IMG/VR virus record: IMGVR_UViG_3300049324_000053
Reading direction: 5' to 3' (one strand)
DNA: 64,000 bases
Origin: a virus
Part shown: positions 85-51,140 of the stretch, piece by piece
Position numbering within the stretch: position 1 is the first letter of the stretch
Layout of the letters: every line of letters starts with the position of its first letter
The notes under the pieces: model-generated
What the model was told of the DNA's origin: nothing
The model's input: only the letters and a program-made list of their open reading frames with translations
The model's database searches: none
Program-made: the position numbers and the translations under genes

Positions 85-459
85 CTACCAGAGGGCCAGT
101 TCGATGACGCCCCAGTCGTCGCCGAAGTCGATCTGCAGGTACATGCGTCCACCGAGGGCTGTCAGGTGCTTACTCAGCGTGCTCAGCAGCAGATCCGGTT
201 GATCCTCCAGCAGGAGTTTGGTTGTGGTCTCATCGCCGTCCATCTGCCCGGCGAGTGCCAACGTTGCTTGCTGTATTGCCTCGCCTGTCGCGTTCATCCG
301 CAGGGTGTAGGTATCGTTGGTCTTCAGCAGTATCGCGAGCTTCTGGGCATTCGTCCGGTCCGGGTTTGGGCCGGATGCGCGCCCGACGAACCGCCGCGCT
401 CGTTCAAGCAGTTGCTCGACATGCGGCGACAGCTCGTCGTCAGCGTCGTCGTCGCTCAT
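85..459 (-). CDS. Degenerate HigA/XRE-like orphan antitoxin
   Basis: C-terminal DLLLSTLSKHLTALGGRMYLQIDFGD resembles the HigA-type DxxLSTLxxYxxALGG motif; HTH region looks degenerate; ATG at 459 overlaps the upstream stop (ATGA). Confidence 0.55.
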   Translation of the reverse strand: MSDDDADDELSPHVEQLLERARRFVGRASGPNPDRTNAQKLAILLKTNDTYTLRMNATGEAIQQATLALAGQMDGDETTTKLLLEDQPDLLLSTLSKHLTALGGRMYLQIDFGDDWGVIELALW

Positions 460-653
460 CGCGGCGGTAATCCAAGGCCGGCGCGGACCTCTTCCGAGGT
501 GTAGACGCGGCCGGCGGCAATGTCTGCCCTCGCTTCCTGGATCTCGGCGATGATGCGAGGGTTCGTGGACATACGCCGGATCTCGCGGCGAGTGATGAAG
601 ATCCTGTTGGTTCGGACGTATTTCTCCCACCATTGGTCGAGCGCCGAGAGCAT
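456..653 (-). CDS. Phd/YefM/RelB-like antitoxin C-terminal (toxin-binding) fragment, 65 aa
   Basis: NPRIIAEIQEARADIAAGRVYTSEEVR motif; no Phd N-terminal domain; TGATG coupling at 651-655. Confidence 0.6.
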   Translation of the reverse strand: MLSALDQWWEKYVRTNRIFITRREIRRMSTNPRIIAEIQEARADIAAGRVYTSEEVRAGLGLPPR

Positions 654-985
654 CAGGAAGCAGCCCTGACGGCGTTGTGCTGGAAGACTACCGGCGCGTC
701 TTCTCCGAGTGTAGCGATCAGCACCTGGCGTACCCATTCGGAACGTGACATGTGGCAGTTTGCTGCTGCTGCATCCACTGCCTTGGTCAGTTCGCGTGAG
801 GCGCGAACCCGGATCGTTGGTGATGGTCCAGGTTCAGAAGGTGCCAGGGGTGGCCGGCCACCCCTGCGTTCGAATCGGGTCATCGTGTCTTCGACCAGTT
901 CGTTGATGTATTCGTCCGTCAGCGGCCGGCCATGGCTGTCGTAGACGATTTCGTCATCTGGGATGTCGCGACCGGGCTTCCTCAT
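653..985 (-). CDS. RHH/CopG antitoxin
   Basis: GGRPPL...SPTIRVRASRELTKAVDAAAANCHMSRSEWVRQVL; ATGA-coupled to the toxin. Confidence 0.8.
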   Translation of the reverse strand: MRKPGRDIPDDEIVYDSHGRPLTDEYINELVEDTMTRFERRGGRPPLAPSEPGPSPTIRVRASRELTKAVDAAAANCHMSRSEWVRQVLIATLGEDAPVVFQHNAVRAAS

Positions 986-1236
986 GGTTTTCTCCTTCGG
1001 AGGTTGTAGGGCATCACATGAATGACGATGATCTCTTCTGGGAGATCCAGTGCGATGACTTCCAACACGAGACCTCGGTCGTCTGGGCCGAACCACATCA
1101 GCCGACCATCGTGCCCGTCGGTTCCTGTTTCGAATGTTGGCTCCGTGGTGTTCATGACGTGCTGGGCGTGGGCTTTGCCGATCCGGTGTTTTCGTGCTGA
1201 GCGGTACCAGCTGACCGGGCGATGATCGTCGGTCAC
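982..1236 (-). CDS. Putative type II toxin (small RelE/BrnT-like actinobacterial SARKH family)
   Basis: SARKHRIGKAHA...GPDDRGLVLEVI...IIVIHVMP; lies upstream of the RHH gene; CACAAT box 6 nt before the GTG. Confidence 0.7.
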   Translation of the reverse strand: MTDDHRPVSWYRSARKHRIGKAHAQHVMNTTEPTFETGTDGHDGRLMWFGPDDRGLVLEVIALDLPEEIIVIHVMPYNLRRRKP

Positions 1237-1344
1237 GTAAGTATTGTGGCACAGTACCGTGTGGGGTGGCAAGCTGCGTTGGGTGATCGACCGCGTGCGG
1301 AGTGTCACCCTGAAGCAGGACGTTTCGGGCGGTACCGTGCCTGT

Positions 1345-2160
1345 ATGGCCTCCAAAGCCGGTGATCCGGGTCCTGCCCGTCGTGCCGCGCGGGTAGGCAA
1401 GCCCGAAGCGCGTCGTTGCGCGCAGTGTGGCCAGAGCAAGCAGCTGCGCAACTTTCCGTATGTGTACGCCGATGGTGAGCCGCCGGGCGTGTGCCGGCGG
1501 TGTTTGTGGGCGGCGAAGCTGGCGGCGGATGAGGCCGGTGTGCGGCCGGTGCCGGTGCTGGTGGCTGATCCCCCGGTTCTGGTTTCGGCGCCGGCGCCAG
1601 TTGTCGACGAACCCACGTTGCCGGTGTCCGAGCCGCCGCTGTCTGATCCGCCGCCACTACCCGACCCGTTGCCACCTGACGTCTTGCCGCCCGATCCGTT
1701 GACGCCGCGGCCGGTCGTGTCGCCGCCGCCGAAGGTGGATCGCTGGCCGGCGGCGCTGCGTGCCTGCGGGGCCCCGAGTGACGATCTTGCCGAGTTGATG
1801 CGCCGTCAGGGCGGGGTGTGTGCGTGTTGCGGTTGCCCGTTCGGTGCGCGCAAGCCGCGCATCCACCGGGACCGTAGCCAGCCGGACCAGGACAGCTTCT
1901 GCGCGATCTTGTGCCATCGGTGTCTGAGCGCTCTGGGAATGCTGAACAACGAGGTGCGGCTGGTGGCGCGGGCGGCGGACTATCTGCGGTCGGTGTCGGC
2001 GGCTGATGCGGATCCGTGTGTGACGACGCCTGTTCCGCCCGCTACGGGCGCGTCGTGGCGGGTGTTGACGCCGGGGATGGTGGTGTGCGTGCCGGTGGTG
2101 TCCTGGTGGGTGCGGGTGCGATCGCGGTTCGTTTCCTGGTGGATGTCGGGTCGTCCCTGA
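1345..2160 (+). CDS. Recombination endonuclease VII-like protein, probably catalytically degenerate
   Basis: N-terminal CxxC...CxxC, Pro-rich linker, QGGVCACC...LCHRCLSALG...ARAADYL; leaderless TACCGT-N6-ATG. Confidence 0.65.
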   Translation: MASKAGDPGPARRAARVGKPEARRCAQCGQSKQLRNFPYVYADGEPPGVCRRCLWAAKLAADEAGVRPVPVLVADPPVLVSAPAPVVDEPTLPVSEPPLSDPPPLPDPLPPDVLPPDPLTPRPVVSPPPKVDRWPAALRACGAPSDDLAELMRRQGGVCACCGCPFGARKPRIHRDRSQPDQDSFCAILCHRCLSALGMLNNEVRLVARAADYLRSVSAADADPCVTTPVPPATGASWRVLTPGMVVCVPVVSWWVRVRSRFVSWWMSGRP

Positions 2161-2184
2161 GATCCGGCTTCCGGTGCGCCGATG
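2158..2184 (+). promoter_or_regulatory. Putative late promoter, copy 1
   Basis: TGAGATCCGG-N10-GCCGATG; one of five copies upstream of structural/lysis genes. Confidence 0.6.
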
Positions 2185-2216
2185 ACTGCTGGGAGTGAGA
2201 AACGGGAGGCGAGGCC

Positions 2217-2744
2217 ATGCCAGTCGCAGATGTCGTCATGGAAACCTGGCGCGCGGTCACTGAGATGACTGTGTGGGTGTGGGTGCGTGACGAGCGTAAC
2301 GGCGGGTTCCGTAAGCAGCGGGTCGGTGGGGGCAATGGTGGATCCCGGGTGCTGCGTATCAGCCATGATGATCGTCTTTACAATGCCGAGATCACTGCTG
2401 AGGAATGCCGGTCCGCCGATCCGTTCAGCAATGGTGCGTTACGTCTTGAGGGTGAATCGGCGTTCGGTGATGTCGATGTGCGTTATCACTGGACGGATGC
2501 TGAGTACGAGAATCTGATCGCGGTGCGTGATGAGGGTCTGTTCCGTGAGCAGGTTGAGGAGATCGGTTCGGAGCTGGTGTTGCGCCGGCTGCGGTCGCTG
2601 ACGGAGCGGTCGGGGACGACGGCGCAGAACGAGATCATCACTGAGGTGTTGGCGGTGCGGTATCCGGTCGGTGGGTCGCAGCGGACATATCTGGAGATGG
2701 CCGCGGAACGTGCGCAGGCCCCTGGCATTCCGTTGAGCGCTTGA
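2217..2744 (+). CDS. Hypothetical structural-region protein
   Basis: GGGAGG SD; follows late promoter; abuts the next gene. Confidence 0.6.
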   Translation: MPVADVVMETWRAVTEMTVWVWVRDERNGGFRKQRVGGGNGGSRVLRISHDDRLYNAEITAEECRSADPFSNGALRLEGESAFGDVDVRYHWTDAEYENLIAVRDEGLFREQVEEIGSELVLRRLRSLTERSGTTAQNEIITEVLAVRYPVGGSQRTYLEMAAERAQAPGIPLSA

Positions 2745-2745
2745 T

Positions 2746-3177: not shown

Positions 3178-3180
3178 CCG

Positions 3181-3495
3181 GTGGCTACCAGCTACGAGAC
3201 GGTGCTCGACGAGGCCGGTTTCACCGCCGACAGCGATCTTGCGTCTCAGCTGTCCGATCATGCGGACGCTGCGGGGATGCGCAGCAATGGTGCGTACGAG
3301 CTGCACGGTGCTTGGAGCAAGGGTGACGTGCGGGTGCATCTGGAGCAGACCACCGCTCCGGATGCGAGCGGCGGCATGAAGATCATCGTTGAGCATCCGC
3401 CGGTACTGATCGTGGTCGCCCCGAATCTGCGGGTCGCGGTCAACCCTGACGACACCGACGCGCTGACCTCGCTGCTGACCGAGATCGCTTCCTGA
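3181..3495 (+). CDS. Hypothetical protein
   Basis: Fills the operon gap; GAGGA SD. Confidence 0.6.
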   Translation: MATSYETVLDEAGFTADSDLASQLSDHADAAGMRSNGAYELHGAWSKGDVRVHLEQTTAPDASGGMKIIVEHPPVLIVVAPNLRVAVNPDDTDALTSLLTEIAS

Positions 3496-5675: not shown

Positions 5676-8228
5676 GTGGCGTGGGGTCTTGCGTTCACGC
5701 TGCCCGGCGGCCGGTTTCGTACGTCGACATCCCTGCCCGGCTACGCGCTCGCCGGTTACGGTGTCGCCGCCTACGCCGACAGTGCGGTACCAGCGGGCAG
5801 CAGGACACTTAACGCGCAGGTCACCGCCACCGCCACCACCGCCGCGGCGCTGGGTTTCAGCTGGCAGCTGCAAGGACAGCCGGCCGCCGGCAGCGCGCAG
5901 ACCACCGGCCAGCTGGGGTTGCCGCGGCACCTGACGGCCACCGCCGCCGGCGCCGGCGTGGTCACCGCTACCGGTAGCCGCCGCGTTCAGGTGACCTGCA
6001 CGGCTGCCGGTCATGCGAGCGTCACGACCGGGGTGTTGCGCCGGGTGCAGACGCTGACCGGGTCGGGCGCCGGTCATGGTGCGCTCACCGGGACGGCGCG
6101 GGTTGCCCGCAGACTCACCGGCACCGCCGCGGCCGGCGCGGGAGTGACCGCTACGGGTGCGGTCGTGCGCCGCCTGACCGGCGCCGCCATCGGCGTCGCG
6201 TCCGGCGCCGCGACGGTCGCCCGTAACCGGGGTCTGAACGGGCATGCGGCCGGTGCCGGGGTGATGTTCGCCGGACGGTACTTGCAGGCGTATGTGCTGA
6301 CGTCCTCGTGTGCCGGCGCCGGCAGTGCCGGCGGCGGGCTGTTGCGGTTGCGGCGGACCACGGCGACCGCCGCGGGGTCGGCGAGTGTTGTCGCCGCTGT
6401 GCCCGTCGCGCGCAAGCTGACTGCCGTTCCGGCCGGTCATGTGGCGGTCGCCGCCACCGTCAAGATCGCGGGAACGTTCACCGGTAGTAGTGTCGCCGCC
6501 GCGATCTTGTCCGCGACTCTTGCCCGCGGCCGTCGTGTCACCGGTGCCGCTGCCGGTATCGCGACAGCGGCCGCGGTGCCACGCGGCACCATTCCGCTCG
6601 CCGCGGTCGTCGCCGGCGCCGGCGTGGTCACCGGCGCCATGACGGCCCGGCGGGTTCTCGTTGCCGTCGTGCACGGGGCGAGCAGTGTCGGCGGCGCTGT
6701 CCGCCGTCGTTATGCGCTGACCGGTTCGGGTGCCGGCACCGGCGACGGCGCCGGTGTGCTGCTGGCTGGGCTCGCCACGCTGACCGCTGCTAGTACCGGC
6801 AGCGCAGCGACGAGCGCGGTACTGCCCCGTGCCCGGCGTCTGACGGTCGTCAGCGCCGGGTGGACGGTGGCGACGGCGCAGGCGTTGCCCGACCGGGGTT
6901 TGACCGCCACCGTGACCGCGGCTGCCACCACGAGCAGTGTGCTGACCCAGCTGGTGCCCACGTTCGGGGTGACCCGGCTGCTGACCGTGACCAGCGATGG
7001 GGCTGCCACGGCCGGTGCGGACGCGGCGGTGGCGGTCCTTGCTGTTCTCGCCGGCGCCGGTGACGGTGCGGCCACCGCCGGTGCGGTGGCCACGTTTGCG
7101 GTGGCGTTCGCCGCCGGTGGTGCCGGTGTTGCGGCCGGTGGCGGTGACCTGGTCCGGCGGCGGGGTGTGACCGCTGCGAGCGTCGGTGCCAGCAGTGCCG
7201 AGGCTGGGGGGGTTGTCTTCTGGGCGTTGCGCGTGGACAGCGCCGGCGGTGCGGTGTCGGCCGGTTCGATGTCGGCCGGCCGGGGTTTGGCCGGCGCCGG
7301 TGACGGCAGGGGCGTCGTTGCTGCGAGCGTGACTCTGCTGCAGCTGCTGGCCGGGGTGACGGCGGGCGGCGCTGCGGTTGTTGTGAACGTCGACCGGGAT
7401 CGGGGGTTGGCCGCGTCGGCTACCGGCATCGGCGACGGCGCCGGTGTGCTGGGTCTGGTGCGGCTGCTGGCCGGCGCCGGCAACGGTGGCGCTGCTGTTG
7501 TTGTGCTGCTGGCAGGTGGTCGTGATGTCACGGCGGCCGCGGACGGCATGTCGAGCGCCGACGGGACGGTTGCTGTTGTCCGGCTGCTGGCCGCCGCCGC
7601 GGCCGGTGCTGCTACGTTCGCCGTCGAATTGGTGAGTGCCCGGGGCCTGGTGGGGGTGTTCACGGCCGGCGCGGTGGCCGGTGCGCAGCTGGCGGTGCTG
7701 CAGCTGCCCAGCGGGTCCGGTGCCGGCGCGGCTGTTGTGGTGGCAGCTGTTCGTGGTGACTGGAGTGTGACTGGCGCCGGTGGGGGGGCCGGCAGCGGGG
7801 CCGGGGTTCTGGTGCTGGGGCTGGCGCTGTTGAACGGCGCCGGCGCTGGTATCGGTCAGGTCGCTGCGGCGGCAATGGTGGCACTGATCGGCGTCGAAAG
7901 TTTCATCGAGGGGTGTTCAACGGTCGTTTGCTGGGTCGAACTGGCGGTGGTGTTCACCGGTGAGCCTGCCGCCGGGGTCGCTGCCGGCACCGCTGCGGTG
8001 ATCGGGGTGCTGGCGCTCGCGCCCACCGCGGTGGCGGTCACCTTTGCCGCTGTTCGTATTGCCGGGGTCACTGTTCTGGCGGCGCTGCTCGGCCTGGCGG
8101 TACCCGAACCGGTGCTGCCGCCGGCGCCATCCCCGGTGCCTCGTGCGGCGCCGCAGGTGGCAGCGAGCAGTGTCGGCGCTGGTGGGGTGGCGGACGTGGT
8201 GCATTTTCATGGCGGCCGTGCCCGGTGA
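5676..8228 (+). CDS. 850-aa Ala/Gly/Val-rich repetitive virion-region protein
   Basis: Long ORF with ~19-aa imperfect repeats such as RRLTGTAAAGAGVTA. Confidence 0.6.
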   Translation: MAWGLAFTLPGGRFRTSTSLPGYALAGYGVAAYADSAVPAGSRTLNAQVTATATTAAALGFSWQLQGQPAAGSAQTTGQLGLPRHLTATAAGAGVVTATGSRRVQVTCTAAGHASVTTGVLRRVQTLTGSGAGHGALTGTARVARRLTGTAAAGAGVTATGAVVRRLTGAAIGVASGAATVARNRGLNGHAAGAGVMFAGRYLQAYVLTSSCAGAGSAGGGLLRLRRTTATAAGSASVVAAVPVARKLTAVPAGHVAVAATVKIAGTFTGSSVAAAILSATLARGRRVTGAAAGIATAAAVPRGTIPLAAVVAGAGVVTGAMTARRVLVAVVHGASSVGGAVRRRYALTGSGAGTGDGAGVLLAGLATLTAASTGSAATSAVLPRARRLTVVSAGWTVATAQALPDRGLTATVTAAATTSSVLTQLVPTFGVTRLLTVTSDGAATAGADAAVAVLAVLAGAGDGAATAGAVATFAVAFAAGGAGVAAGGGDLVRRRGVTAASVGASSAEAGGVVFWALRVDSAGGAVSAGSMSAGRGLAGAGDGRGVVAASVTLLQLLAGVTAGGAAVVVNVDRDRGLAASATGIGDGAGVLGLVRLLAGAGNGGAAVVVLLAGGRDVTAAADGMSSADGTVAVVRLLAAAAAGAATFAVELVSARGLVGVFTAGAVAGAQLAVLQLPSGSGAGAAVVVAAVRGDWSVTGAGGGAGSGAGVLVLGLALLNGAGAGIGQVAAAAMVALIGVESFIEGCSTVVCWVELAVVFTGEPAAGVAAGTAAVIGVLALAPTAVAVTFAAVRIAGVTVLAALLGLAVPEPVLPPAPSPVPRAAPQVAASSVGAGGVADVVHFHGGRAR

Positions 8229-8237
8229 GCGGGTCTT

Positions 8238-8405
8238 TCACTGCCGGTTCGCGGCACGCTCCCACGGATCGTCGACCGGATCGTCGATGCCCGCGTCGAT
8301 GTCGGCTCGCCACTCGCGCCAGTCCTGTGGCGGCAGCGTCGCAAGGAACGCGTTCACGTCCGCGCCGGTCACCGGTGGCTTGCCGGGCGGGTCGTTCGTC
8401 TGCAC
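8238..8405 (-). CDS. 55-aa orphan VapB/Phd-like antitoxin C-terminal fragment (below ORF-track cutoff)
   Basis: Hand translation MQTNDPPGKPPVTGADVNAFLATLPPQDWREWRADIDAGIDDPVDDPWERAANRQ; paralog at 50973-51140; TAGGCT-N7-GTG. Confidence 0.65.
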   Translation of the reverse strand: MQTNDPPGKPPVTGADVNAFLATLPPQDWREWRADIDAGIDDPVDDPWERAANRQ

Positions 8406-8425
8406 CTTCGTGAGCCTAGCGACGT

Positions 8426-8452
8426 TCGCATCCGGGTGCGGCCCGGTCGATG
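8426..8452 (+). promoter_or_regulatory. Putative late promoter, copy 2
   Basis: TCGCATCCGG-N10-GTCGATG upstream of 8461. Confidence 0.55.
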
Positions 8453-8460
8453 TCTACGGC

Positions 8461-8985
8461 GTGACGGATCTGCTCGACTACGTGCCGGCGTTGGAGCGTG
8501 CTGTCGCCCCGCCGGGCACGTTCGCGGCGACGTTCCCCGCGGCCGGCACCGACGACATGGTCGGTTATCTGCTTGATGGTCTTGCCGAGGCGCAGATGGA
8601 CGGGTTCCTGATGGATCCGCGTCTGACGTTCACCCAGGACGGGGTGGTGACACCGGATCTGAGCCCGGGGCAGGCGGCGCTGGTGACGATGTATGCCGGG
8701 TTGCGGCTGCTGCGGGCGACACTGCTCAACCGGGTCGGGTCCACCCGGTACAAGGCCGGGCCGGTGGAGTACGAGACGTCGACCGGTACGAGCCTGCTGG
8801 TGGCGTTGCTGAAGGAAGCTCAGGACCGCCGGGATCGGCTGCTGGTCCGGTTGCAGACGCTCGCGGGAGGGATGAGTTTTGCGATGGGCGACCTGTATCT
8901 GCTCAAAGCGACCGGCAGTTACGGGGTGGCGATCGCCGAGCTGCCTTCGCTCGGGCAGGTGTACGACCCGATGATGGGCGGCTGA
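8461..8985 (+). CDS. Head-to-tail adaptor-like protein
   Basis: RYKAGPVEYE motif; first gene of the joining cluster. Confidence 0.6.
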   Translation: MTDLLDYVPALERAVAPPGTFAATFPAAGTDDMVGYLLDGLAEAQMDGFLMDPRLTFTQDGVVTPDLSPGQAALVTMYAGLRLLRATLLNRVGSTRYKAGPVEYETSTGTSLLVALLKEAQDRRDRLLVRLQTLAGGMSFAMGDLYLLKATGSYGVAIAELPSLGQVYDPMMGG

Positions 8986-32791: not shown

Positions 32792-32938
32792 ATGGACGAC
32801 GACGAGCCCGGCGATCACACGGCAGACAGCATCGAGAAGTTGTACTGGCGTCTTGCTGACCGGGCGTTGCTCGATCGGCCGGATCTCCAGGAAAGTCTTG
32901 CCCAGATGCGCCGTGGCGAAGGTGAGATTGTTGCTTAG
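32792..32938 (+). CDS. 48-aa YefM/Phd-like antitoxin C-terminal fragment (below ORF-track cutoff)
   Basis: Hand translation MDDDEPGDHTADSIEKLYWRLADRALLDRPDLQESLAQMRRGEGEIVA; TAGGCT-N6-ATG. Confidence 0.5.
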   Translation: MDDDEPGDHTADSIEKLYWRLADRALLDRPDLQESLAQMRRGEGEIVA

Positions 32939-33231
32939 CGCGTGTCGAAGATTTCGTGTGTTCCGATGCGACGCCAGATGACATGCACCTGTCCTGGAAG
33001 CACTTCCGGCCCGTATTCGAACGTGGCGCGCCCGTTCGGTGCCCATGTCATCTCGAACACGCCGGAGACATGCACTTTCTTCACTCGCAACCCCGGGGGG
33101 AAGGGTTCGCCTTTGGTCAGCGCCGGGACAAATAGCTCCTGAATCTTTTCGAGGAACCGGCGTTTCTGTTCGGCGGTCAGCTGCTGGTGGTCAGCAGTGA
33201 ATCGGGCTGCGCGCTCAAACGTCGGCGGCAT
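32935..33231 (-). CDS. RelE/ParE-superfamily toxin
   Basis: LRVKKV...VFEMTWAPNGRATF...WRRIGTHEIF. Confidence 0.8.
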   Translation of the reverse strand: MPPTFERAARFTADHQQLTAEQKRRFLEKIQELFVPALTKGEPFPPGLRVKKVHVSGVFEMTWAPNGRATFEYGPEVLPGQVHVIWRRIGTHEIFDTR

Positions 33232-33523
33232 CGACGGCCAGCGACTCGGTGAACTCTTCGACGCTCATCGGCCCGGACGTGTATCCAGCGGCGATGTCGC
33301 AGCTGGCTTCGTGTTCTCCGGCCTGCCATGCCGGCGTCCAGAACCATGCCTGATCCGCCGGGATCACACGCGCCGGGATCAGCCGGACACCGTCATCGTC
33401 CTGCAGGAAGATCACCTCGTCGCCTTCGGTGAGGTGCAGCGCTTCGCGAATCGGTGCCGGCAAGGTCAGCTGACCGCGAGCGCGCATCGTGCTGTGCGGC
33501 GTGAGGTGGGAGGTGGTGTCCAA
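33215..33523 (-). CDS. AbrB/MazE-family antitoxin
   Basis: RGQLTLPAPIREALHL.EGD.V; DQAWFWTPAWQAGE.EA..DIAAG. Confidence 0.88.
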   Translation of the reverse strand: MDTTSHLTPHSTMRARGQLTLPAPIREALHLTEGDEVIFLQDDDGVRLIPARVIPADQAWFWTPAWQAGEHEASCDIAAGYTSGPMSVEEFTESLAVDAADV

Positions 33524-36189: not shown

Positions 36190-36372
36190 GTGCCTACCGA
36201 AGACGACTACGCCGCGGCCGCCGACTGGGCCGAGTACGACATGGTGCTGGTGCCCAACTCGCGCACGGCACTGCACGGCGCTGCCGCAGCCCAGTACAGC
36301 CGGGCTCTGCTTGCACGCGCAGGTGTCGATGTGTCCGGCGTGTCTGGCTCGGATGTGGCATCGGCCACGTAG
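36190..36372 (+). CDS. N-terminal fragment of an RHH-antitoxin-like protein
   Basis: DYAAAADWAE.DM.L..NS.TALHG.AAA...R.LL.RAG with no downstream RHH; TAGAGT-N7-GTG. Confidence 0.5.
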   Translation: MPTEDDYAAAADWAEYDMVLVPNSRTALHGAAAAQYSRALLARAGVDVSGVSGSDVASAT

Positions 36373-39015: not shown

Positions 39016-39309
39016 GTGATGAGTGTGACATGCTCCATCATGAGGTGTGAATCTGGGGTTCACACCCGAACCGGTAAACACCCAGCTCAGGGGGTCGCCT
39101 TCTTCCTCTTAAGAGGTAACCGAGCTGGCAGGTGCGTCGCGTTGCGTGCTTGCAACGCTATCCGAGCGGCTCGCGGGGCCGGGGCGGGAAGCACCATGCC
39201 GGCGACCTGGCCGGTTCTTCTGATCTTGTCTTGGACCCCTGGTGAGCCGACATGGCCCACCCTCGAACCTCAAACCCAAGGGCGCCGCAAGGGCAGCGGT
39301 GCCGCCGCC

Positions 39310-39425
39310 GGCGCGCGGCGCTGTCTGGTCCGGGTGAGCCCGGCGGGAGTCCGCCACGCGGGTGTTCGGTCCGCGGGGTTCGGGGGGCGCGGTTGCCCCC
39401 CGTTCACGCGGCCGCAGCCTGCGCC
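39310..39425 (+). repeat. Structured non-coding element, copy A
   Basis: Similar to the reverse complement of 48714-48833. Confidence 0.8.
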
Positions 39426-39514
39426 ATGAACCGCTGGTGAGCGGACGCCGGCAAGAAGATGGGCCTCGGCTGCGCCGAGTCCTTGTGGGAGTCCGACGTC
39501 GTATCCTGCAGCTC

Positions 39515-40045
39515 ATGACGGACAACGCCGCCGACCTGATCGCACGTGCGCTCTGGATGGCCGGTCTGACCGCCGCGCAGCTGGCCAGCCGGCTGGACAT
39601 GCCGCAGTCGTTGCTCGACCAGCATCTTGACGGGCAGGTGCAGCCGACCCTGCGGCAGCTGGAGCACATCCTGGCCGTCGCCGGCCTGGAACCGGACATC
39701 GAGCTGCGCCCCCTTGGCACCCGCCAGGGCCAGAAGCTGTTGCAGGTGCTGGCGGTCACGGAGCTGCTGCCGCACGGGGAGCCGGGCCCGTTGCTGTTCC
39801 CGCCGTTTCGGACGTTCCTGCGCCGCGCTGATGACGAGGTTGCGTCCAGGCGAGACGATCAAGAGGTCGTCGACGTCTTCCGTGCTGCGCAGAGGGATTG
39901 GCCTGAGCACTTGAGGGACGACGCCCCGGTGCAGGCTTGTTCTGGATGCGGACGAAAGACCTGGACGTCTACCCGCTTCGGCCGGCCATGCGCGATGACG
40001 CAACCGGACGGAACACGTTGTCCCGGCGTGTTCGTGTCGGCGTAG
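39515..40045 (+). CDS. XRE-HTH (antitoxin-like) protein with Cys-rich C-terminal extension
   Basis: AGLTAAQLA....PQS......GQVQPTL..L..IL..AG; L.QVL...E.LP......L.FPP; TATCCT-N7-ATG. Confidence 0.6.
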   Translation: MTDNAADLIARALWMAGLTAAQLASRLDMPQSLLDQHLDGQVQPTLRQLEHILAVAGLEPDIELRPLGTRQGQKLLQVLAVTELLPHGEPGPLLFPPFRTFLRRADDEVASRRDDQEVVDVFRAAQRDWPEHLRDDAPVQACSGCGRKTWTSTRFGRPCAMTQPDGTRCPGVFVSA

Positions 40046-46974: not shown

Positions 46975-47316
46975 GTGAGCATCCGCACCGGTTTCCCCGC
47001 CCTGGCGCGCACCACCCGGCGCACCGTACGCACCGGCCTGCACGCCCACGGCTGCCCCCGCTGCCGGCGCCGTTTCGACTGCACGTGCGGGACGCCCGGC
47101 GCCGACCCCGAATGCATCACCTGCCGTGCCGGCACCCCCGCCTGGGAACTGCTGGCCGGCAACCGCGCACCCCGCCCCTGCTGTGCGGCGCGCGCCCGGC
47201 CCGTCACCGCCGAGGAACGTTCCCGCTATCGGCTCGCCGGCAGCTGCCCCTGGCTGATCTGCCCCGCCTGCTACCGCACCCATCCCTTCTGCATCCGAAA
47301 GGTCCATCCGCGATGA
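46975..47316 (+). CDS. Cys-rich Zn-binding protein
   Basis: HAHGC..C...C.C...C..CR...CC...C..C.RTHP. Confidence 0.55.
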   Translation: MSIRTGFPALARTTRRTVRTGLHAHGCPRCRRRFDCTCGTPGADPECITCRAGTPAWELLAGNRAPRPCCAARARPVTAEERSRYRLAGSCPWLICPACYRTHPFCIRKVHPR

Positions 47317-47678
47317 GCGAGCCCACAGGGTACGACCCCGCCACTGGTGAGATTCGGCCGGCGGAGGCGTTCGACGACAATGCCGAGTTCGTTCCCGCCG
47401 CGTTGGCGCCGGCGCCGGTCGTGCCGTACTTGTTCGAGGGCACCGAAGTCGCCGCGTCGACCGCCAAGCTGGCCAGCAAGAGCGGCTTGGACATCGGCGA
47501 CCGGGTGTTGTCGTACGGCGACTACATCGAACTGACGATCATCGCTCGGGTTGCCGGCGTCGACCACGCTCCGATCCCGGAGAACGAGGACATCCTTGGC
47601 CGCGGACATCGTCTCGTCGTCGCCGACACCACGTTCCTGCGAGCCTGGAACCCGCGCTCCGGCCTGGAATACCGTTGA
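47313..47678 (+). CDS. Hypothetical protein
   Basis: ATGA-coupled; DPATGEI...FEG..V. Confidence 0.55.
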   Translation: MSEPTGYDPATGEIRPAEAFDDNAEFVPAALAPAPVVPYLFEGTEVAASTAKLASKSGLDIGDRVLSYGDYIELTIIARVAGVDHAPIPENEDILGRGHRLVVADTTFLRAWNPRSGLEYR

Positions 47679-48010
47679 GCAGTCCACCTCCTGGCGCCCT
47701 GCCAGGGCGTGCGACCCAGGTGGTGCGCACCATCGAGTTCTCCCCTGACGGCGGCTTGACCGTCGAGTACGTCGACCCCGAACAGGACGTCAAATCCAAC
47801 GGCCTCATGGTCAACCATGTGTTGTGGATTCCGTACGAGCCGTACGAGGACGAGATCGAGAAGCTGGTCGACACGTTGCGCGAGTTGGTGGCCGAAGCGA
47901 CCCGTGACCTGGCCATGTTGGGGCCGCCGCTCACACATCCCAGTGAAGAACGCTCGTTGGGCGCCCCCGACGACGACGACGAGGAGGACGGCCCGGACTT
48001 CCCGCGTTGA
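47675..48010 (+). CDS. Hypothetical acidic protein
   Basis: TTGA-coupled. Confidence 0.5.
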   Translation: MSSPPPGALPGRATQVVRTIEFSPDGGLTVEYVDPEQDVKSNGLMVNHVLWIPYEPYEDEIEKLVDTLRELVAEATRDLAMLGPPLTHPSEERSLGAPDDDDEEDGPDFPR

Positions 48011-48076
48011 CGGTAGTCGTAGACAGCTTCACATGTTGGTAGTAACCCTCGGCAAACACCCAGCGTGACGGCATGG

Positions 48077-48637: not shown

Positions 48638-48713
48638 GGCCGCCATCCTGGCACCGGGCAAGGTCCGACCGGCGCCTGTCGCGCCTGCCGGCGAACGCCC
48701 GCCGACGACCCGC

Positions 48714-48833
48714 GGCGCAGCCGGCGGTCCCGCTTCGGGGGGCCAACCGCGGCCCCCCCGTACCCCGGCGGACCGAATCCCCGCGTGGCGGGCTGCCGCT
48801 CGACTCACCCGGACCGGGCAGCGGTGCGCACCC
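48714..48833 (-). repeat. Structured non-coding element, copy B (inverted relative to A)
   Basis: Shares GGTCCGGGTGAG, CCGCCACGCGGG, TTCGGTCCGC and a G-run/GCGGTT/C-run hairpin with copy A. Confidence 0.8.
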
Positions 48834-48867
48834 ATTCGATAGGTTTCCTCCTAGCCAAGGAGGGCCT

Positions 48868-49785: not shown

Positions 49786-49799
49786 CGGTAGGCGGGCGC

Positions 49800-50078
49800 T
49801 CATTTTTGACTTCGGGGCAGGACGGTCGGGCCGTATCGTTCGCGGGCGTCCTGCTTGCTCATGCCGAGGACGGCACCGATCAGCCCCCAGCGGCAGCCGT
49901 TCACACGGGCCTGGGTTACCACGGCGGTCAGGTGCTCATCGTCGGCATCGTTCTCGACGGCGGCGATCAGCGCGCGTAGGTCGGTGGCATCTGTCATAAC
50001 GACGGTCTGCGGGTCGAGCTGGTCCAGCCAGGCTTCTGCGGCGAGCACCTCGGCGCGTAGCTGTTCGTCGTCCATCAT
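49800..50078 (-). CDS. Orphan HTH antitoxin-like protein
   Basis: WLD.LDP....DATDLR...V..AR..G..W..IG.VLGMSKQ.A.ERYG. Confidence 0.6.
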   Translation of the reverse strand: MMDDEQLRAEVLAAEAWLDQLDPQTVVMTDATDLRALIAAVENDADDEHLTAVVTQARVNGCRWGLIGAVLGMSKQDARERYGPTVLPRSQK

Positions 50079-50575
50079 CGAACCTCCCGGACGGCCGCGT
50101 CGATCCGTGCCTGTGCTTCGGCCCTCTTCGGACGAATCGCCAGGCCGTCTTCGGTGTGGAAGACCTCGAAGTCGCTGCGGTACTTCTCACGCCAATTCGG
50201 GTCGTAGGCGGTCAGGACCGACTCGGCGTCGGTGCGTTCACTGGCCAGTCGAAACACGAGTTGCGGTCCTTCGGCTGCGTAAAGATCCAACCCGGTGATG
50301 GGGTAGCCGAAGGCGATGGGGGTCTCAAGCCACGAGGCCACGTCCTGGATGTGGTGATCCTGCGTAAGCAGTACGCAGGTGGCAAGCAGGGCGGCCACGG
50401 ACGTTCGGTTTTCCTCAGACGACGTCCCACCGTTCCGCCACTTTTGGACGGCGGGTACGTTCACGCCCACGAGGCGGGCGACGTCGCGCCAGGCAAAACC
50501 GTACTCAGCAACCTGTTCCAGCAATGAGGGCATGTCCAGTCGGGCCAGGTCGGCGGTCGTGGGTTCCAGCATCAT
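50075..50575 (-). CDS. Orphan Xre-MbcA/ParS-like antitoxin
   Basis: GFAWRDVARLVGVNVPAVQKWRNG; DVASWLETPI..G.P.T.LDL. Confidence 0.6.
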   Translation of the reverse strand: MMLEPTTADLARLDMPSLLEQVAEYGFAWRDVARLVGVNVPAVQKWRNGGTSSEENRTSVAALLATCVLLTQDHHIQDVASWLETPIAFGYPITGLDLYAAEGPQLVFRLASERTDAESVLTAYDPNWREKYRSDFEVFHTEDGLAIRPKRAEAQARIDAAVREVR

Positions 50576-50976
50576 GAATGCTCCTTCGTGGCACGCCCCC
50601 AGGGGTCGTTGACCGGATCGTCGATCCGTGCCTGCGCCTCGGCGAGTTCGTCCTTGGTGAAGACGCCGTGCCCCTGCTGGTAGCGCGCCAGCTCGGCACC
50701 CAGCAGCTCATGCCGCCGCTGCGGGTCGTCCCCCTCCTGCTTCAGGCGTTCGAGCACCCAGCCGCGGGCCAGCTGGCTCATGGACGTTTTACGCGCCTGC
50801 GCCGCCGTCTCCAGGTCGAACAGCTGGTCGCCCGGCAACCGGATGGACAAGACGAACGCCAGGGCCTGCGGCGGCAGGTTCGGATCGGCGCGCACCCAGC
50901 CGCCGTCCGGTTCGCTGTCACCGAGCGCGTCGGCTTGGGCTTTGAGTGCGGCGAACTCTTCACGGCTCAACGTCAA
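50572..50976 (-). CDS. Chimeric RHH/CopG antitoxin-like protein
   Basis: VLSIRLP...L...A......SQLARGWV.ERL plus YQQ.HGVFT.DEL.EA plus IDDPV.DPW tail. Confidence 0.65.
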   Translation of the reverse strand: MTLSREEFAALKAQADALGDSEPDGGWVRADPNLPPQALAFVLSIRLPGDQLFDLETAAQARKTSMSQLARGWVLERLKQEGDDPQRRHELLGAELARYQQGHGVFTKDELAEAQARIDDPVNDPWGRATKEHS

Positions 50977-51140
50977 GACTGCTCCTTACTGCGGTTCGCG
51001 GCACGCTCCCACGGGTCGTCGACCGGGTCGTCGATACCGTGATCGACGTCCCTGCGTAGTTCGCGCCAGTCTTGTGGCGGCAAGGTGGCGAGGAACGCGT
51101 TCCATTCACCTATCGTGACCTGCGGTTTTGGGGTTTCCAT
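50973..51140 (-). CDS. 55-aa orphan VapB/Phd-like antitoxin C-terminal fragment
   Basis: Hand translation METPKPQVTIGEWNAFLATLPPQDWRELRRDVDHGIDDPVDDPWERAANRSKEQS; TAGCCT-N8-ATG; TTGA-coupled. Confidence 0.65.
   Translation of the reverse strand: METPKPQVTIGEWNAFLATLPPQDWRELRRDVDHGIDDPVDDPWERAANRSKEQS

What the first reader, a model, noticed from the sequence alone, without database searches (positions are those of the whole stretch)
85..51140. Dispersed library of toxin-less antitoxins from several type II families: candidate phage anti-TA system
Seen: only two toxins are visible (982-1236, 32935-33231), each with its own antitoxin. About ten further antitoxin-like ORFs have no toxin partner: 85-459 (HigA-like), 456-653 and 32792-32938 (Phd/YefM C-termini), 8238-8405 and 50973-51140 (VapB/Phd-like C-termini), 36190-36372 (RHH-antitoxin N-terminus), 39515-40045 (XRE), 49800-50078 (HTH), 50075-50575 (Xre-MbcA/ParS-like) and 50572-50976 (RHH chimera). 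Several have lost the DNA-binding domain and kept the presumed toxin-binding segment. All are intact ORFs, either translationally coupled or with their own TANNNT leaderless promoter. Known: TA systems act in antiphage defence, phage antitoxin mimics exist (T4 Dmd, phiTE pseudo-ToxI), and actinobacteria carry many TA loci. Inference: a multi-family set of minimal decoy antitoxins that neutralises host toxins without autorepression. Family calls are by eye.
Basis: partly seen in the sequence, partly recalled or inferred. Interest (0 to 1): 0.92.

Follow-up and report, generated by a model that had tools for sequence, protein, structure and literature searches.

The report
Phage genes for antitoxin tails only
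A large high-GC actinobacterial phage carries small, conserved genes that encode only the toxin-binding tail of a VapB antitoxin, with no DNA-binding half and no toxin next to them; they may disarm PIN-domain toxins, but most of the other listed "antitoxins" are ordinary regulators or cannot be assigned.

Summary
Partly confirmed. All listed ORFs exist and are intact. The family calls hold unevenly.

- Strong: 8238-8405 and 50973-51140 (55 aa each) are the C-terminal half of a Phd/YefM-type VapB antitoxin. Full-length relatives (P0006, P0009, 14 Lentzea/Saccharothrix/Actinosynnema loci) have the missing N-domain. All but P0006 sit next to a PIN VapC. dN/dS across copies is 0.07-0.37. Each has a TANNNT hexamer 7-8 nt before its start.
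- A sister phage (L006) has vapB-vapC-vapB' exactly where this window keeps only vapB'.
- 50572-50976 is an RHH protein carrying the same tail (88% nt identity over 41 nt).
- Moderate: 456-653 carries a RelB/YefM-type tail (M. tuberculosis Rv2865, E 4e-4).
- Leads only: 50075-50575 (NatR/MbcA-like fold from a poor model) and 85-459 (HigA-type HTH by language-model features).
- Generic HTH: 39515-40045 and 49800-50078.
- Unsupported: 32792-32938 and 36190-36372.

So there is a real tail-only antitoxin family, not a ten-member multi-family library. No VapC of the L006/Lentzea type (profile A4) lies in the window. First-reader notes place one about 18 kb upstream; I could not reach that DNA. The target (host, rival phage or own VapC) is open. 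The same arsenal was noted in overlapping windows of this genome, not on other DNA.

The parts
8238..8405 (-). vapB'-1: a 55-aa stand-alone C-terminal (toxin-binding) half of a Phd/YefM-type VapB antitoxin. It is leaderless (TAGGCT 7 nt before the GTG) and lies antisense between virion genes.
   Evidence: 78% aa identity to residues 40-89 of full-length P0006 and 83% to the vapB' of L006. Profile A5 E 8e-26. dN/dS 0.13-0.22. Hexamer.
50973..51140 (-). vapB'-2: a 55-aa paralog that is the first gene of a four-gene coupled operon. TAGCCT lies 8 nt before the ATG.
   Evidence: P0006 found with E 4.5e-18, 76% identity, query 4-54 on protein 42-92. 80% aa and 81% nt identity to vapB'-1 (D3, 27). 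dN/dS 0.07-0.14. Hexamer.
51187..51201 (-). Intrinsic-terminator-like hairpin (6 G-C pairs plus a T run) that separates the DUF6744 gene from the vapB'-2 operon.
50572..50976 (-). 134-aa RHH DNA-binding protein with a grafted VapB tail. The last ~20 residues (about 50575-50634) carry IDDPVNDPW.
   Evidence: PHROG 10190 DNA-binding 1.4e-5. Homolog P0004: DUF6290 3.1e-4, CopG_antitoxin 6.8e-3, RelB 2.3e-4, all below cutoff. Tail: A5 profile E 3.3e-4 for residues 115-134 and repeat D7, 88% over 41 nt. Homologs carry different tails.
50075..50575 (-). 166-aa protein with an N-terminal HTH and a C-terminal domain; possibly Xre-MbcA/NatR-like.
   Evidence: HTH_23 1.1e-3, below cutoff. ESM Atlas: actinobacterial HTH clusters 0.95 and TM 0.79; PF09722 clusters only 0.88. 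AF2 model pLDDT 60.6. Longest VIA matches: NatR 8QNL_A Z 8.2, rmsd 3.2, 103 aa; MbcA 6FKG_C Z 7.8, rmsd 4.4, 107 aa; 8GUG_C Z 7.0, rmsd 3.8, 115 aa.
49800..50078 (-). 92-aa HTH protein, last gene of the operon.
   Evidence: phrog_18428 1e-7 and phrog_686 HTH 7.6e-4. 43% identical to the C-terminal part of the L001 126-aa protein, in the same synteny.
456..653 (-). 65-aa basic protein (pI 10.7) whose last 36 residues resemble the toxin-binding C-terminus of RelB/YefM-type antitoxins. The N-domain is incomplete.
   Evidence: PDB 3G5O_A (M. tuberculosis Rv2865) E 4.1e-4, query 30-65 on chain 63-98. NCBIfam RelB/ParD NF050811 E 1.2e-4, 22 bits against a cutoff of 60, profile 25-83 of 83.
85..459 (-). 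124-aa acidic (pI 4.4) ORFan coupled to 456-653; a possible degenerate HigA-type XRE domain.
   Evidence: Only itself among 5.8e9 proteins. No Pfam, PHROG or NCBIfam hit. ESM Atlas HTH_37/HTH_3 clusters 0.90-0.93; structure TM 0.40-0.44 on a pLDDT 0.49 model.
653..985 (-). 110-aa RHH antitoxin-like protein, the partner of 982-1236.
   Evidence: NikA-like 3.8e-3, RHH_1 0.021, DUF6290 0.045. PHROG 22338 3.1e-5. NCBIfam VapB_Myco 3.1e-3, below cutoff.
982..1236 (-). Toxin-like first gene of the 1236-to-85 operon. A promoter-like site lies just upstream.
   Evidence: phrog_36779 'toxin' 6.5e-4. TTGCCA-18-CACAAT at 1272-1243. No Pfam, NCBIfam or PDB match.
33215..33523 (-). MazE/AbrB-type antitoxin, the only curated-threshold antitoxin hit in the window.
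   Evidence: Pfam MazE_antitoxin 4.8e-10, 39.7 bits against a cutoff of 24.7. TIGR01439 AbrB 1.7e-10.
32935..33231 (-). 98-aa basic (pI 9.7) presumed toxin, overlapping the end of the MazE-type gene.
   Evidence: Context only. No Pfam, NCBIfam, PHROG or PDB hit. Homologs (59%) on Streptomyces plasmids are annotated hypothetical.
32792..32938 (+). 48-aa acidic leaderless ORF of unknown family.
   Evidence: TAGGCT 6 nt before the ATG. No family hit. No similarity to 456-653.
36190..36372 (+). 60-aa acidic leaderless ORF. It is a homolog of the N-terminal module of a 126-aa protein in sister phage L001, not an RHH.
   Evidence: 61% identity over 41 aa to the L001 4775-5155 product. TAGAGT 7 nt before the GTG. 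No antitoxin hit.
39515..40045 (+). 176-aa XRE-type HTH regulator with a Cys-rich C-terminus.
   Evidence: HTH_31 5.2e-5, below cutoff. PHROG 4583 transcriptional repressor 1e-5.

Best explanation
The window is part of a roughly 145-kb high-GC phage genome; its Lsr2 gene and its closest protein relatives point to an actinobacterial host. The finding mixes one real, unusual gene family with ordinary genes.

The real part is a set of VapB-derived modules:
- two 55-aa stand-alone genes (8238-8405, 50973-51140) that encode only the C-terminal half of a Phd/YefM-type VapB antitoxin;
- an RHH protein (50572-50976) with the last ~20 residues of that tail grafted on;
- more weakly, a 65-aa protein (456-653) with a RelB/YefM-type tail.

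Shown here: they are translated and under purifying selection. They begin where the N-terminal dimerisation/DNA-binding domain of full-length relatives ends. Each vapB' has its own -10-like hexamer placed as for a leaderless transcript. Most full-length relatives sit next to PIN-domain VapC toxins. A sister phage has vapB-vapC-vapB' at the very site where this phage keeps only vapB'.

Inferred: the tail-only peptides bind the VapC groove and block the RNase, as the C-terminus of VapB does in solved VapBC complexes, but they cannot bind operator DNA. They would act as constitutive, non-repressing antitoxins. The most likely targets are VapC toxins of the type carried by sister phages or prophages, or by actinomycete chromosomes (anti-addiction or anti-abortive-infection).

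The remaining ORFs are best read as DNA-binding regulators or unassigned small leaderless genes: 39515-40045, 49800-50078, the HTH part of 50075-50575, 36190-36372 and 32792-32938. The four-gene operon then looks like a small anti-defence gene followed by its regulators.
For: Homology:
- An exhaustive HMMER search with 50973-51140 found P0006 (93 aa) at E 4.5e-18, 76% identity, query 4-54 on residues 42-92.
- P0006 and P0009 have Phd/YefM N-domains: PF02604 at 28.5 and 37.3 bits (cutoff 29.8), TIGR01552 at 31.2 bits for P0009.
- The family profile hits M. tuberculosis VapB5 (3DBO_A, 6.4e-13) and VapB46.
- Alignments A1 and A5 show the window ORFs starting at the domain boundary.

Toxin partner:
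- P0009 overlaps a PIN protein, P0018 (PF01850, 31.4 bits against a cutoff of 23.6).
- All 14 chromosomal loci have a full-length VapB ending in DDP[LV]DDPW; for 12 of them the script found an overlapping PIN-like ORF, and the L007 one passes Pfam PIN.

Selection: pairwise dN/dS is 0.07-0.37 among the five copies, with dS 0.3 to over 1.5.

Synteny:
- L006 1-471 matches window 8896-8426 (85%) and L006 1212-1732 matches window 8422-7903 (70%). The window therefore lacks only the 740-nt vapBC cassette and keeps vapB' (83% aa).
- A third phage contig has a 55-aa gene coupled to the RHH homolog P0003.

Promoters: TANNNT lies 7-8 nt before vapB'-1 and vapB'-2, and TACNNT 7 nt before the L006 vapB and vapB' and the L003 vapB.

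Tail graft: 41 nt at 88-95% identity among the three window copies (D7); profile E 3.3e-4.

RelB-type tail.

Complex prediction of VapC P0018 with window 8238-8405: weak support. Score 0.57 against a best control of 0.02. The mark was reached by 58 of 80 solved complexes and 2 of 110 mismatched pairs; at 0.60 or under it was reached by only 7 of those 80 and by both mismatches that passed. The runs agree in at least 79% of contacts and the partner pLDDT is at least 65. VapBC complexes are solved, so the pass may reflect likeness only.

Precedent: orphan DarG-like antitoxins in T4-like phages neutralise DarT1 (PMC11825919).
Against: - No binding or rescue was measured, and the complex prediction is only weak support.
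- In L006 vapB' lies directly after a complete phage-borne vapBC, so its primary partner may be the phage's own toxin rather than a defence toxin.
- The nearest chromosomal VapB tails are only about 44% identical, so no host target is identified and the host is unknown.
- L003 carries a full-length VapB without a toxin, so orphan status is not tied to truncation.
- For 456-653 the evidence is sub-threshold and there are no relatives. No toxin in the window hits a RelE model.
- Only three related contigs are known, all short metagenome pieces.
Confidence: 0.5

Rival explanations
1. Accessory antitoxin of the phage's own toxin. vapB' would be the third gene of a vapB-vapC-vapB' module: a non-repressing spare antitoxin that buffers the phage-borne VapC. 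In this phage the copies serve a VapC encoded elsewhere on the 145-kb genome, not host or rival toxins.
For: L006 has vapB, vapC and vapB' in a row on one strand; vapB' follows vapC after 30 nt and has the lowest dS against its own vapB (0.32). First-reader notes report a vapBC island about 17.6-18.9 kb before the window start in the same genome (not checked).
Against: The window keeps vapB' exactly where the vapBC cassette is absent, and has a second copy 42 kb away in another operon. vapB' has its own promoter-like hexamer rather than coupling to vapC. No stretch resembling the L006 VapC was found in any noted window of this genome or in this window. So any own VapC is not close to the one whose VapB tail these ORFs resemble.
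Confidence: 0.2
2. One reading: about ten ORFs from at least five type II families (VapB, YefM/RelB, HigA, MbcA/ParS, RHH) form a deliberate broad-spectrum decoy library against host TA defences.
For: Several by-eye calls gained some support. VapB tails. RelB2-like tail. NatR/MbcA/VPA0769 are the longest structural matches of 50075-50575, and PF09722 clusters score 0.88. HTH_37/HigA-type clusters score 0.90-0.93 for 85-459. The small candidates share a rare leaderless promoter signature. Tails differ among homologs of the RHH protein, as expected of a shuffled toolkit.
Against: No ORF passes a curated antitoxin threshold. 32792-32938 and 36190-36372 show no antitoxin similarity. 39515-40045 and 49800-50078 are generic HTH proteins. 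The RHH and HTH proteins keep DNA-binding folds and are syntenic core genes in L001. The MbcA-like and HigA-like evidence rests on low-confidence models and scores that shuffled proteins reach 4-10% of the time.
Confidence: 0.15
3. Relics. The tail-only ORFs are leftovers of TA cassettes that were deleted, with no present function.
For: The window differs from L006 by a clean 740-nt vapBC indel next to vapB'-1. The sister phages whose contigs were fetched carry complete TA modules: PemK in L001 and vapBC in L006.
Against: dN/dS is 0.07-0.37 with saturated dS. The length is the same 55 aa in three or four phage contigs. The start and -10-like hexamer are conserved. In L006 vapB' coexists with an intact vapBC, so it is not what a deletion left behind.
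Confidence: 0.05
4. The VapB-like tail is a short protein-interaction motif reused for something other than toxin control, for example docking onto a host or phage factor. The four-gene operon would be purely a transcription-regulatory cassette.
For: The tail occurs on an RHH DNA-binding scaffold. The operon is otherwise RHH plus two HTH proteins. L003 has an orphan full-length VapB behind a conserved regulatory element also found before two unrelated window genes.
Against: Apart from the orphan P0006, every full-length protein found with this tail is a Phd/YefM antitoxin lying just upstream of a PIN or PIN-like gene: P0009 in L006 and at least 12 of the 14 chromosomal loci. The complex prediction gives weak support for VapC binding.
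Confidence: 0.1

Closest known systems
Phd/YefM-type VapB antitoxins of VapBC modules (for example M. tuberculosis VapB5 in VapBC-5, PDB 3DBO)
   Same: The C-terminal ~50 residues are homologous: 76-78% identity to P0006, and the family profile hits 3DBO_A at 6.4e-13. Most relatives pair with PIN toxins. From my own knowledge of solved VapBC complexes, the C-terminal region of VapB is the part that wraps VapC.
   Different: The window genes lack the whole N-terminal Phd/YefM domain, have no adjacent toxin, are phage-borne, occur twice, and have their own promoter-like hexamers.
Antitoxins without a DNA-binding domain in three-component TA systems (PaaA2 of paaR2-paaA2-parE2; epsilon of omega-epsilon-zeta). 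Comparison from my own knowledge.
   Same: A small, acidic, toxin-binding-only antitoxin, with DNA binding left to a separate RHH or HTH protein encoded nearby.
   Different: Those sit in one operon with their toxin. Here no toxin lies in the operon or the window, and the peptide is recognisably a truncated VapB. No sequence relationship was tested.
Phage-encoded orphan antitoxin-like counter-defences (DarG-like enzymes of T4-like phages against DarTG1, PMC11825919; T4 Dmd; pseudo-ToxI of phiTE)
   Same: A phage gene derived from, or mimicking, an antitoxin, with no cognate toxin beside it, proposed to neutralise a defence toxin.
   Different: The DarG-like proteins are enzymes that reverse a modification. 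Dmd is unrelated in sequence to the antitoxins it replaces. Pseudo-ToxI is RNA. Here the proposed agent is a truncated type II protein antitoxin acting by sequestration, and nothing has been tested functionally.
Anti-addiction chromosomal antitoxin homologs (ccd of Erwinia chrysanthemi against F-plasmid ccd). Comparison from my own knowledge.
   Same: An antitoxin copy protects its carrier against the toxin of a related module carried by a competing element.
   Different: That case is a complete chromosomal TA pair. Here there are tail-only orphans on a phage.
acr-aca anti-defence operons (a small anti-defence gene followed by an HTH autorepressor). Architectural analogy only.
   Same: A short gene behind a promoter-like hexamer that follows a terminator-like hairpin, followed by coupled RHH and HTH DNA-binding genes.
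   Different: No homology to known Acr or Aca beyond generic HTH fold matches. Regulation was not tested.

Membership tests
Phd/YefM antitoxin (PF02604 / TIGR01552), VapB subtype | N-terminal Phd/YefM dimerisation and DNA-binding domain | tested here: not met
   8238-8405 and 50973-51140 give no PF02604 hit at E up to 1. In alignments A1 and A5 they start after the domain present in P0006, P0009 and the Lentzea VapBs.
Phd/YefM antitoxin (PF02604 / TIGR01552), VapB subtype | C-terminal toxin-binding region homologous to bona fide family members | tested here: met
   E 4.5e-18 to P0006 residues 42-92. Profile A5 E 8e-26 and 8.5e-25. The terminal DDPxDDPW motif is shared with 14 chromosomal VapBs.
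Phd/YefM antitoxin (PF02604 / TIGR01552), VapB subtype | Adjacent cognate toxin (PIN-domain VapC) | tested here: not met
   A VapC profile (A4) finds nothing in six frames of the window; best E 0.19. The neighbours are virion genes or RHH/HTH genes. Relatives do have one. The rest of the genome could not be read.
Phd/YefM antitoxin (PF02604 / TIGR01552), VapB subtype | Binds and neutralises its toxin | tested here: inconclusive
   The complex prediction with the L006 VapC gives weak support: 0.57 against a best control of 0.02. Needs experiment.
RelB/YefM-type antitoxin of RelE toxins (NF050811; M. tuberculosis Rv2865, PDB 3G5O), for 456-653 | Sequence match at the curated threshold over the whole domain | tested here: not met
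   22.2 bits against a cutoff of 60, covering profile 25-83 of 83. Only residues 30-65 match 3G5O_A 63-98, E 4.1e-4. No Pfam hit.
RelB/YefM-type antitoxin of RelE toxins (NF050811; M. tuberculosis Rv2865, PDB 3G5O), for 456-653 | Adjacent RelE/YoeB-type toxin | tested here: not met
   The downstream coupled gene 85-459 is acidic (pI 4.4), an ORFan and matches no toxin family. The upstream genes are an RHH protein and a toxin-like protein of unknown family.
Xre-MbcA/ParS/NatR antitoxins (PF20432 + PF09722), for 50075-50575 | C-terminal Xre_MbcA_ParS_C (DUF2384) domain | tested here: inconclusive
   Pfam shows no PF09722 at E up to 1. ESM Atlas PF09722 clusters score only 0.88. On a pLDDT 60.6 model the longest matches are NatR Z 8.2, rmsd 3.2, 103 aa; MbcA Z 7.8, rmsd 4.4, 107 aa; 8GUG_C Z 7.0, rmsd 3.8, 115 aa. 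Foldseek E 0.07-0.4.
Xre-MbcA/ParS/NatR antitoxins (PF20432 + PF09722), for 50075-50575 | Adjacent RES-domain or ParT toxin | tested here: not met
   The neighbours are the RHH protein and a 92-aa HTH protein. None of the roughly 60 window ORFs put through Pfam gave a RES hit.
HigA-type XRE antitoxin (HTH_3 / HTH_37), for 85-459 | Detectable XRE helix-turn-helix domain | tested here: inconclusive
   No HTH hit in Pfam, NCBIfam or PHROGs. ESM Atlas feature scores of 0.90-0.93 to HTH_37/HTH_3 clusters and TM 0.40-0.44 on a pLDDT 0.49 model. Lead only.
RHH (CopG/BrnA/DUF6290/RelB-type) antitoxin, for 50572-50976 | Ribbon-helix-helix domain at the curated threshold | tested here: inconclusive
   Window protein: DUF6290 0.043 and RelB 0.064. 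Homolog P0004: DUF6290 3.1e-4, CopG_antitoxin 6.8e-3, RelB 2.3e-4; all below cutoffs. PHROG DNA-binding protein 1.4e-5. No PDB sequence hit with profile A3.
RHH (CopG/BrnA/DUF6290/RelB-type) antitoxin, for 50572-50976 | Adjacent toxin | tested here: inconclusive
   In L001 a 124-aa gene of unknown family precedes the homolog. It has no Pfam or NCBIfam hit and its model failed at pLDDT 40.8. In the window and in a third contig a 55-aa gene holds that place.
Phage orphan-antitoxin counter-defence (functional class, for example DarG-like, PMC11825919) | Restores phage growth on hosts carrying the matching TA defence | not testable with these tools
   Needs plaque assays and toxin-rescue assays.

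The most novel reading that the evidence does not exclude
This phage lineage has turned type II antitoxins into a modular toolkit of toxin-binding tails. The toolkit would comprise stand-alone leaderless tail-only genes (vapB' x2, a RelB-type tail), tails grafted onto unrelated DNA-binding scaffolds (RHH-VapB tail, with different tails in sister phages), orphan full-length antitoxins, and diverged MbcA/NatR-like and HigA-like proteins. Together these would form a broad-spectrum anti-TA counter-defence arsenal spread over a 145-kb actinophage genome.
Probability: 0.2. Interest if true: 0.85.

Novelty: new variant of a known kind. Interest (0 to 1): 0.62.

Why it matters
TA modules, VapBC above all, are very numerous in actinobacteria, and their role in phage defence is still debated. 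A phage that carries only the toxin-binding tail of a VapB, kept by selection, duplicated, grafted onto other proteins and present with or without an adjacent vapBC in sister phages, gives a concrete test: does a 55-aa peptide neutralise PIN toxins, and whose? A yes would add a protein-sequestration route by truncated type II antitoxins to the known phage counter-defences. It would give minimal VapC inhibitors for study and show how TA cassettes are taken apart and reused on mobile elements. It also shows that curated HMM thresholds miss such fragments, so similar genes may be widespread among unannotated small phage ORFs.

Tried and rejected
- Megablast of 20-22 kb pieces against phages and plasmids: no match.
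- No whole genome is held. Walking with roughly 4-kb Logan contigs was judged too costly.
- tblastn against 50,697 phages: nothing for 50572-50976 or for P0006; only distant matches (<60%) for the primase-helicase.
- IMG/VR scans with 85-459 and 50973-51140: nothing useful.
- Metagenome scan with the VapB-tail alignment: nothing; that collection seems to lack the samples that hold P0006 and P0009.
- PDB sequence searches: nothing for 32935-33231, 982-1236 (best 'Toxin' 9SDC_C at E 0.11), the RHH profile A3 or 50075-50575.
- AF2 model of the L001 124-aa protein, a suspected toxin by eye (BrnT-like C-terminus): pLDDT 40.8, unusable.
- The 50075-50575 model is poor (pLDDT 60.6), so its fold matches are leads only.
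- 32792-32938 against 456-653: no similarity.
- Idea that 456-653 plus 85-459 is itself an antitoxin-toxin pair: dropped, because 85-459 is acidic and resembles XRE domains if anything.
- Reading 39404-39910(-) instead of the XRE frame: my codon score preferred it, but the + frame has the HTH hits and the normal GC1/GC2/GC3 pattern.
- Rfam and tRNA scans of the window: empty.
- Literature searches found no report of truncated VapB genes in phages.

Full report
WHAT THE WINDOW IS. The sequence is about 66% G+C. It has no near match among sequenced phages or plasmids, and no genome is held for it. The gene content is that of a large phage:
- a plus-strand virion block from about 2.2 to 32.8 kb, with a Gp80 podophage-fibre domain (5.9e-34), a 2731-aa giant protein and a minor-tail/J-like C-terminus;
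- a lysis cassette of amidase plus SLT transglycosylase;
- replication genes: exonuclease, Sak4-like protein and primase-helicase;
- a minus-strand block with an ATP-dependent ligase, a RuvB-like AAA protein, MoxR, vWA and DUF6744;
- Lsr2, which points to an actinobacterial host.
Window proteins lie on a 145,127-nt contig.

THE OBSERVATION. All except the 'toxin' 982-1236 and the XRE frame 39515-40045 appear in a codon-usage gene call that I trained on long ORFs only. The 4-nt stop/start overlaps are in the coordinates. The promoter claim also holds. Five uncoupled candidates have TANNNT 6-8 nt before the start codon. Among 76 called genes only four have such a hexamer at 5-9 nt, all four are candidates, and the background is 0.8%. 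This phage therefore has a distinct class of small genes with a leaderless-type promoter signature.

CURATED FAMILY SEARCHES. None of the ten 'orphans' reaches a curated threshold in Pfam, PHROGs or NCBIfam. The only antitoxin that does is 33215-33523, a MazE/AbrB type (4.8e-10), which overlaps the presumed toxin 32935-33231. Neither 'toxin' hits Pfam or NCBIfam. 982-1308 hits a PHROG annotated 'toxin' at 6.5e-4. 32935-33231 has 59%-identical homologs on Streptomyces plasmids that are annotated hypothetical.

THE VapB TAIL FAMILY. 8238-8405 and 50973-51140 are 80% identical in protein and 81% in DNA. An exhaustive HMMER search of 1.84 billion representatives with the 55-aa protein gave one strong hit, P0006 (93 aa, E 4.5e-18). 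Its residues 42-92 align with the query, and its first 40 residues form a classic Phd/YefM N-domain.

A search with P0006 found P0009 (94 aa, 66% identical, same tail; PF02604 at 37.3 bits and TIGR01552 at 31.2 bits, both above cutoff) and more distant prevent-host-death antitoxins. The family profile hits M. tuberculosis VapB5 (3DBO_A, 6.4e-13) and VapB46. In the alignments the two window ORFs begin where the N-domain ends.

P0009 is followed, with a 4-nt overlap, by a PIN-domain protein, P0018 (PF01850 at 31.4 bits against a cutoff of 23.6). A scan of one genome per species found 14 loci, all in Lentzea, Saccharothrix and Actinosynnema. Each has a full-length VapB ending in DDP[LV]DDPW, and for 12 of them the script found an overlapping PIN-like ORF.

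ARE THE FRAGMENTS ALIVE? Pairwise Nei-Gojobori dN/dS over 43 shared codons among the five available copies is 0.07-0.37, with dS from 0.3 to saturation. The copies are the two window vapB', the L006 vapB', the L006 vapB and the L003 vapB. The substitutions between the two window paralogs are mostly synonymous in the minus frame. This also settles that 8238-8405 is read on the minus strand even though it lies inside the plus-strand virion block.

SYNTENY WITH SISTER PHAGES.
- L006 is a 2963-nt metagenome contig flanked by homologs of window 8380-8985 (85% aa) and of the Gly/Ala-rich 5676-8228 protein. Its order is vapB (P0009), vapC (P0018), then a 55-aa vapB' (P0019) that is 83% identical to window 8238-8405.
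- At the DNA level L006 1-471 matches window 8896-8426 and L006 1212-1732 matches window 8422-7903. The window differs by a clean 740-nt indel that holds vapB and vapC, and it retains vapB'.
- The L006 vapB' has its own TACGCT hexamer 7 nt before its GTG.
- L003, from the same sample as L001, carries a full-length VapB (P0006) with no toxin. It is convergent with homologs of window 47313-48010.
- A third contig has a 55-aa gene coupled by a 4-nt overlap to the RHH homolog P0003, the same order as window 50973-51140 and 50572-50976. No DNA was available to confirm its identity.

THE CHIMERA AND ITS OPERON. 50572-50976 has only three homologs among 5.8 billion proteins.
- Its core is an RHH. PHROG DNA-binding protein scores 1.4e-5. 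For homolog P0004, DUF6290 scores 3.1e-4, CopG_antitoxin 6.8e-3 and RelB 2.3e-4, all below cutoffs.
- Its last 20 residues match the VapB-tail profile (E 3.3e-4). They are 88% identical in DNA over 41 nt to the vapB' genes (D7), so this is a recent graft.
- The homologs end differently. P0002 has a shortened DPW tail. P0003 has a tail like the C-terminus of window 50075-50575. P0004 has neither.
- In L001 the order RuvB-like, MoxR, vWA, [124 aa], RHH homolog, [126 aa], [151 aa] parallels the window.
- The L001 126-aa protein equals window 36190-36372 (61% over 41 aa) plus window 49800-50078 (43% over 75 aa). So 36190-36372 is a separated N-terminal module of that protein, not an 'RHH antitoxin N-terminus'.
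- The RHH and HTH genes are conserved core genes with intact DNA-binding folds. That fits regulators better than decoys.

THE OTHER CALLS.
- 456-653: residues 30-65 match the C-terminus of M. tuberculosis Rv2865 (3G5O_A 63-98, E 4.1e-4, about half identical). NCBIfam RelB/ParD gives 1.2e-4 but only 22 bits against a cutoff of 60, over profile positions 25-83. This is a RelB/YefM-type tail with an incomplete N-domain; support is moderate.
- 85-459: an acidic ORFan. Its only lead is language-model similarity to HTH_37/HTH_3 clusters (0.90-0.93, a level that shuffled proteins reach 4-10% of the time) and TM 0.40-0.44 on a poor model.
- 50075-50575: a weak HTH hit. It belongs to an actinobacterial family of 170-190-aa HTH proteins (0.95, TM 0.79). 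On a low-confidence AF2 model (pLDDT 60.6) the only matches spanning more than 100 residues are the RES-type antitoxins NatR (Z 8.2, rmsd 3.2, 103 aa), MbcA (Z 7.8, rmsd 4.4, 107 aa) and chain 8GUG_C of the VPA0770-VPA0769 toxin-antitoxin entry (Z 7.0, rmsd 3.8, 115 aa). Foldseek E-values are 0.07-0.4.
- 39515-40045 and 49800-50078: generic HTH proteins.
- 32792-32938: no detectable relative and no similarity to 456-653.

IS THERE A TOXIN FOR THEM? A profile of the L006 and Lentzea VapCs finds nothing in six frames of the window. Pfam scans of some thirty further window genes found no toxin family. First-reader notes on overlapping windows of the same genome describe a vapBC island about 17.6-18.9 kb upstream, a Doc pair and further orphans. 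These notes are unchecked and I could not fetch that DNA. A look-up with the L006 VapC sequence found no look-alike in any noted window. If the genome has a VapC, it is therefore not a close relative of the one whose VapB tail these ORFs resemble.

MECHANISM.
- Shown: tail-only, translated, conserved genes that appear to be separately promoted and are homologous to the VapC-binding half of VapB.
- Inferred: they bind and block PIN toxins without operator binding. The basis is established knowledge that the VapB C-terminus wraps VapC and occludes its active site, as in VapBC-5.
- A complex prediction of the L006 VapC with window 8238-8405 gave weak support. The score was 0.57 against a best control of 0.02. 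The mark was reached by 58 of 80 solved complexes and 2 of 110 mismatched pairs, but at 0.60 or under by only 7 of those 80 and by both mismatches that passed. Runs agreed in at least 79% of contacts, and the partner pLDDT was at least 65. Solved VapBC complexes may be remembered by the model.
- The target is open. The closest cognate VapC known is phage-borne (L006). Chromosomal tails are about 44% identical.
- I rate anti-VapC sequestration directed at rival phages or hosts at about 0.5, an own-toxin accessory antitoxin at about 0.2, the full multi-family library at about 0.15, a non-toxin use of the motif at about 0.1 and relics at about 0.05.

COMPARISON AND NOVELTY.
- Functionally the peptides resemble DNA-binding-less antitoxins such as PaaA2 or epsilon, and anti-addiction antitoxins (my own knowledge).
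- As phage genes they fall in the class of orphan antitoxin-like counter-defences, now documented for DarG-like enzymes in T4-like phages (PMC11825919).
- They are not members of PF02604 as defined, because the N-domain is absent.
- I found no report of truncated VapB genes in phages and no homolog in 50,697 phage genomes.
- Verdict: a new variant of a known kind. It is real and testable, but much narrower than the finding claims.

Noticed in passing
window 39241-39489 (+) and 48686-48832 (-); L003 38-286: A roughly 250-nt GC-rich non-coding element is present twice in the window (80% identity) and at 88% in a sister phage. It lies upstream of three unrelated genes: the XRE gene at 39515, the 48077-48661 gene, and the orphan full-length vapB of L003. 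RNAalifold gives a long hairpin with two compensatory changes in a G6/C6 stem. There is no Rfam match.
   Followed up: partly
window 8238-8405, 32792-32938, 36190-36372, 39515-40045, 50973-51140: These small genes share TANNNT 6-8 nt before the start codon. Only 4 of 76 called genes have this, against a 0.8% background. They look like a separately promoted, leaderless gene class, possibly expressed at a different time from the long operons.
   Followed up: partly
L006 513-1396: A sister-phage cassette vapB-vapC-vapB' is inserted antisense between two virion genes. The window lacks exactly the 740 nt that hold vapB and vapC.
   Followed up: yes
L001 4775-5155 versus window 36190-36372 and 49800-50078: A 126-aa protein of a sister phage corresponds to two separate window genes 13 kb apart: its N-terminal module and its C-terminal HTH module.
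   Followed up: partly
L001 7648-8213: The sister phage carries a complete PemK/MazF-type pair (a 77-aa gene followed by a 111-aa PF02452 gene) that has no counterpart in the window.
   Followed up: no
window 13822-22017: A 2731-aa ORF contains a Pro/Thr/Ala-rich tandem repeat (12-18-nt periodicity at 17798-18057) and 180-nt repeats at 20832-21230. It is probably a tape-measure or internal virion protein; no PHROG search was run on it.
   Followed up: no
window 5676-8228: An 850-aa Gly/Ala/Thr/Val-rich protein (74% GC locally) with internal repeats spaced by multiples of 30 nt. Homologs lie in L006, and it has no family hit.
   Followed up: no
window 51253-58058 (-): The operon of ATP-dependent DNA ligase, RuvB-like AAA, MoxR and vWA (plus DUF6744 in the window) is conserved in sister phage L001 at 46-60% identity. 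It lies directly upstream of the RHH/HTH cassette.
   Followed up: partly
window 60018-60422 (-): An Lsr2-like nucleoid-associated protein, with both the dimerisation and the DNA-binding domains above Pfam cutoffs. This is a marker of an actinobacterial host.
   Followed up: no
window 653-2217: This stretch has a low coding score. The 312-aa plus-strand ORF 1222-2160 has an endonuclease VII domain (2.1e-5) and overlaps the toxin-like gene by 15 nt at its start. L004 shows a second endonuclease VII gene just beyond the window start.
   Followed up: no
window 50572-50976, residues 2-30: The invariant N-terminus of the RHH family (TLSRE...EPDxGWVRA) loosely echoes the VapB tail pattern (TLPPQD...DDPWERA). 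The profile score is insignificant (0.6 bits), so this may be chance.
   Followed up: partly
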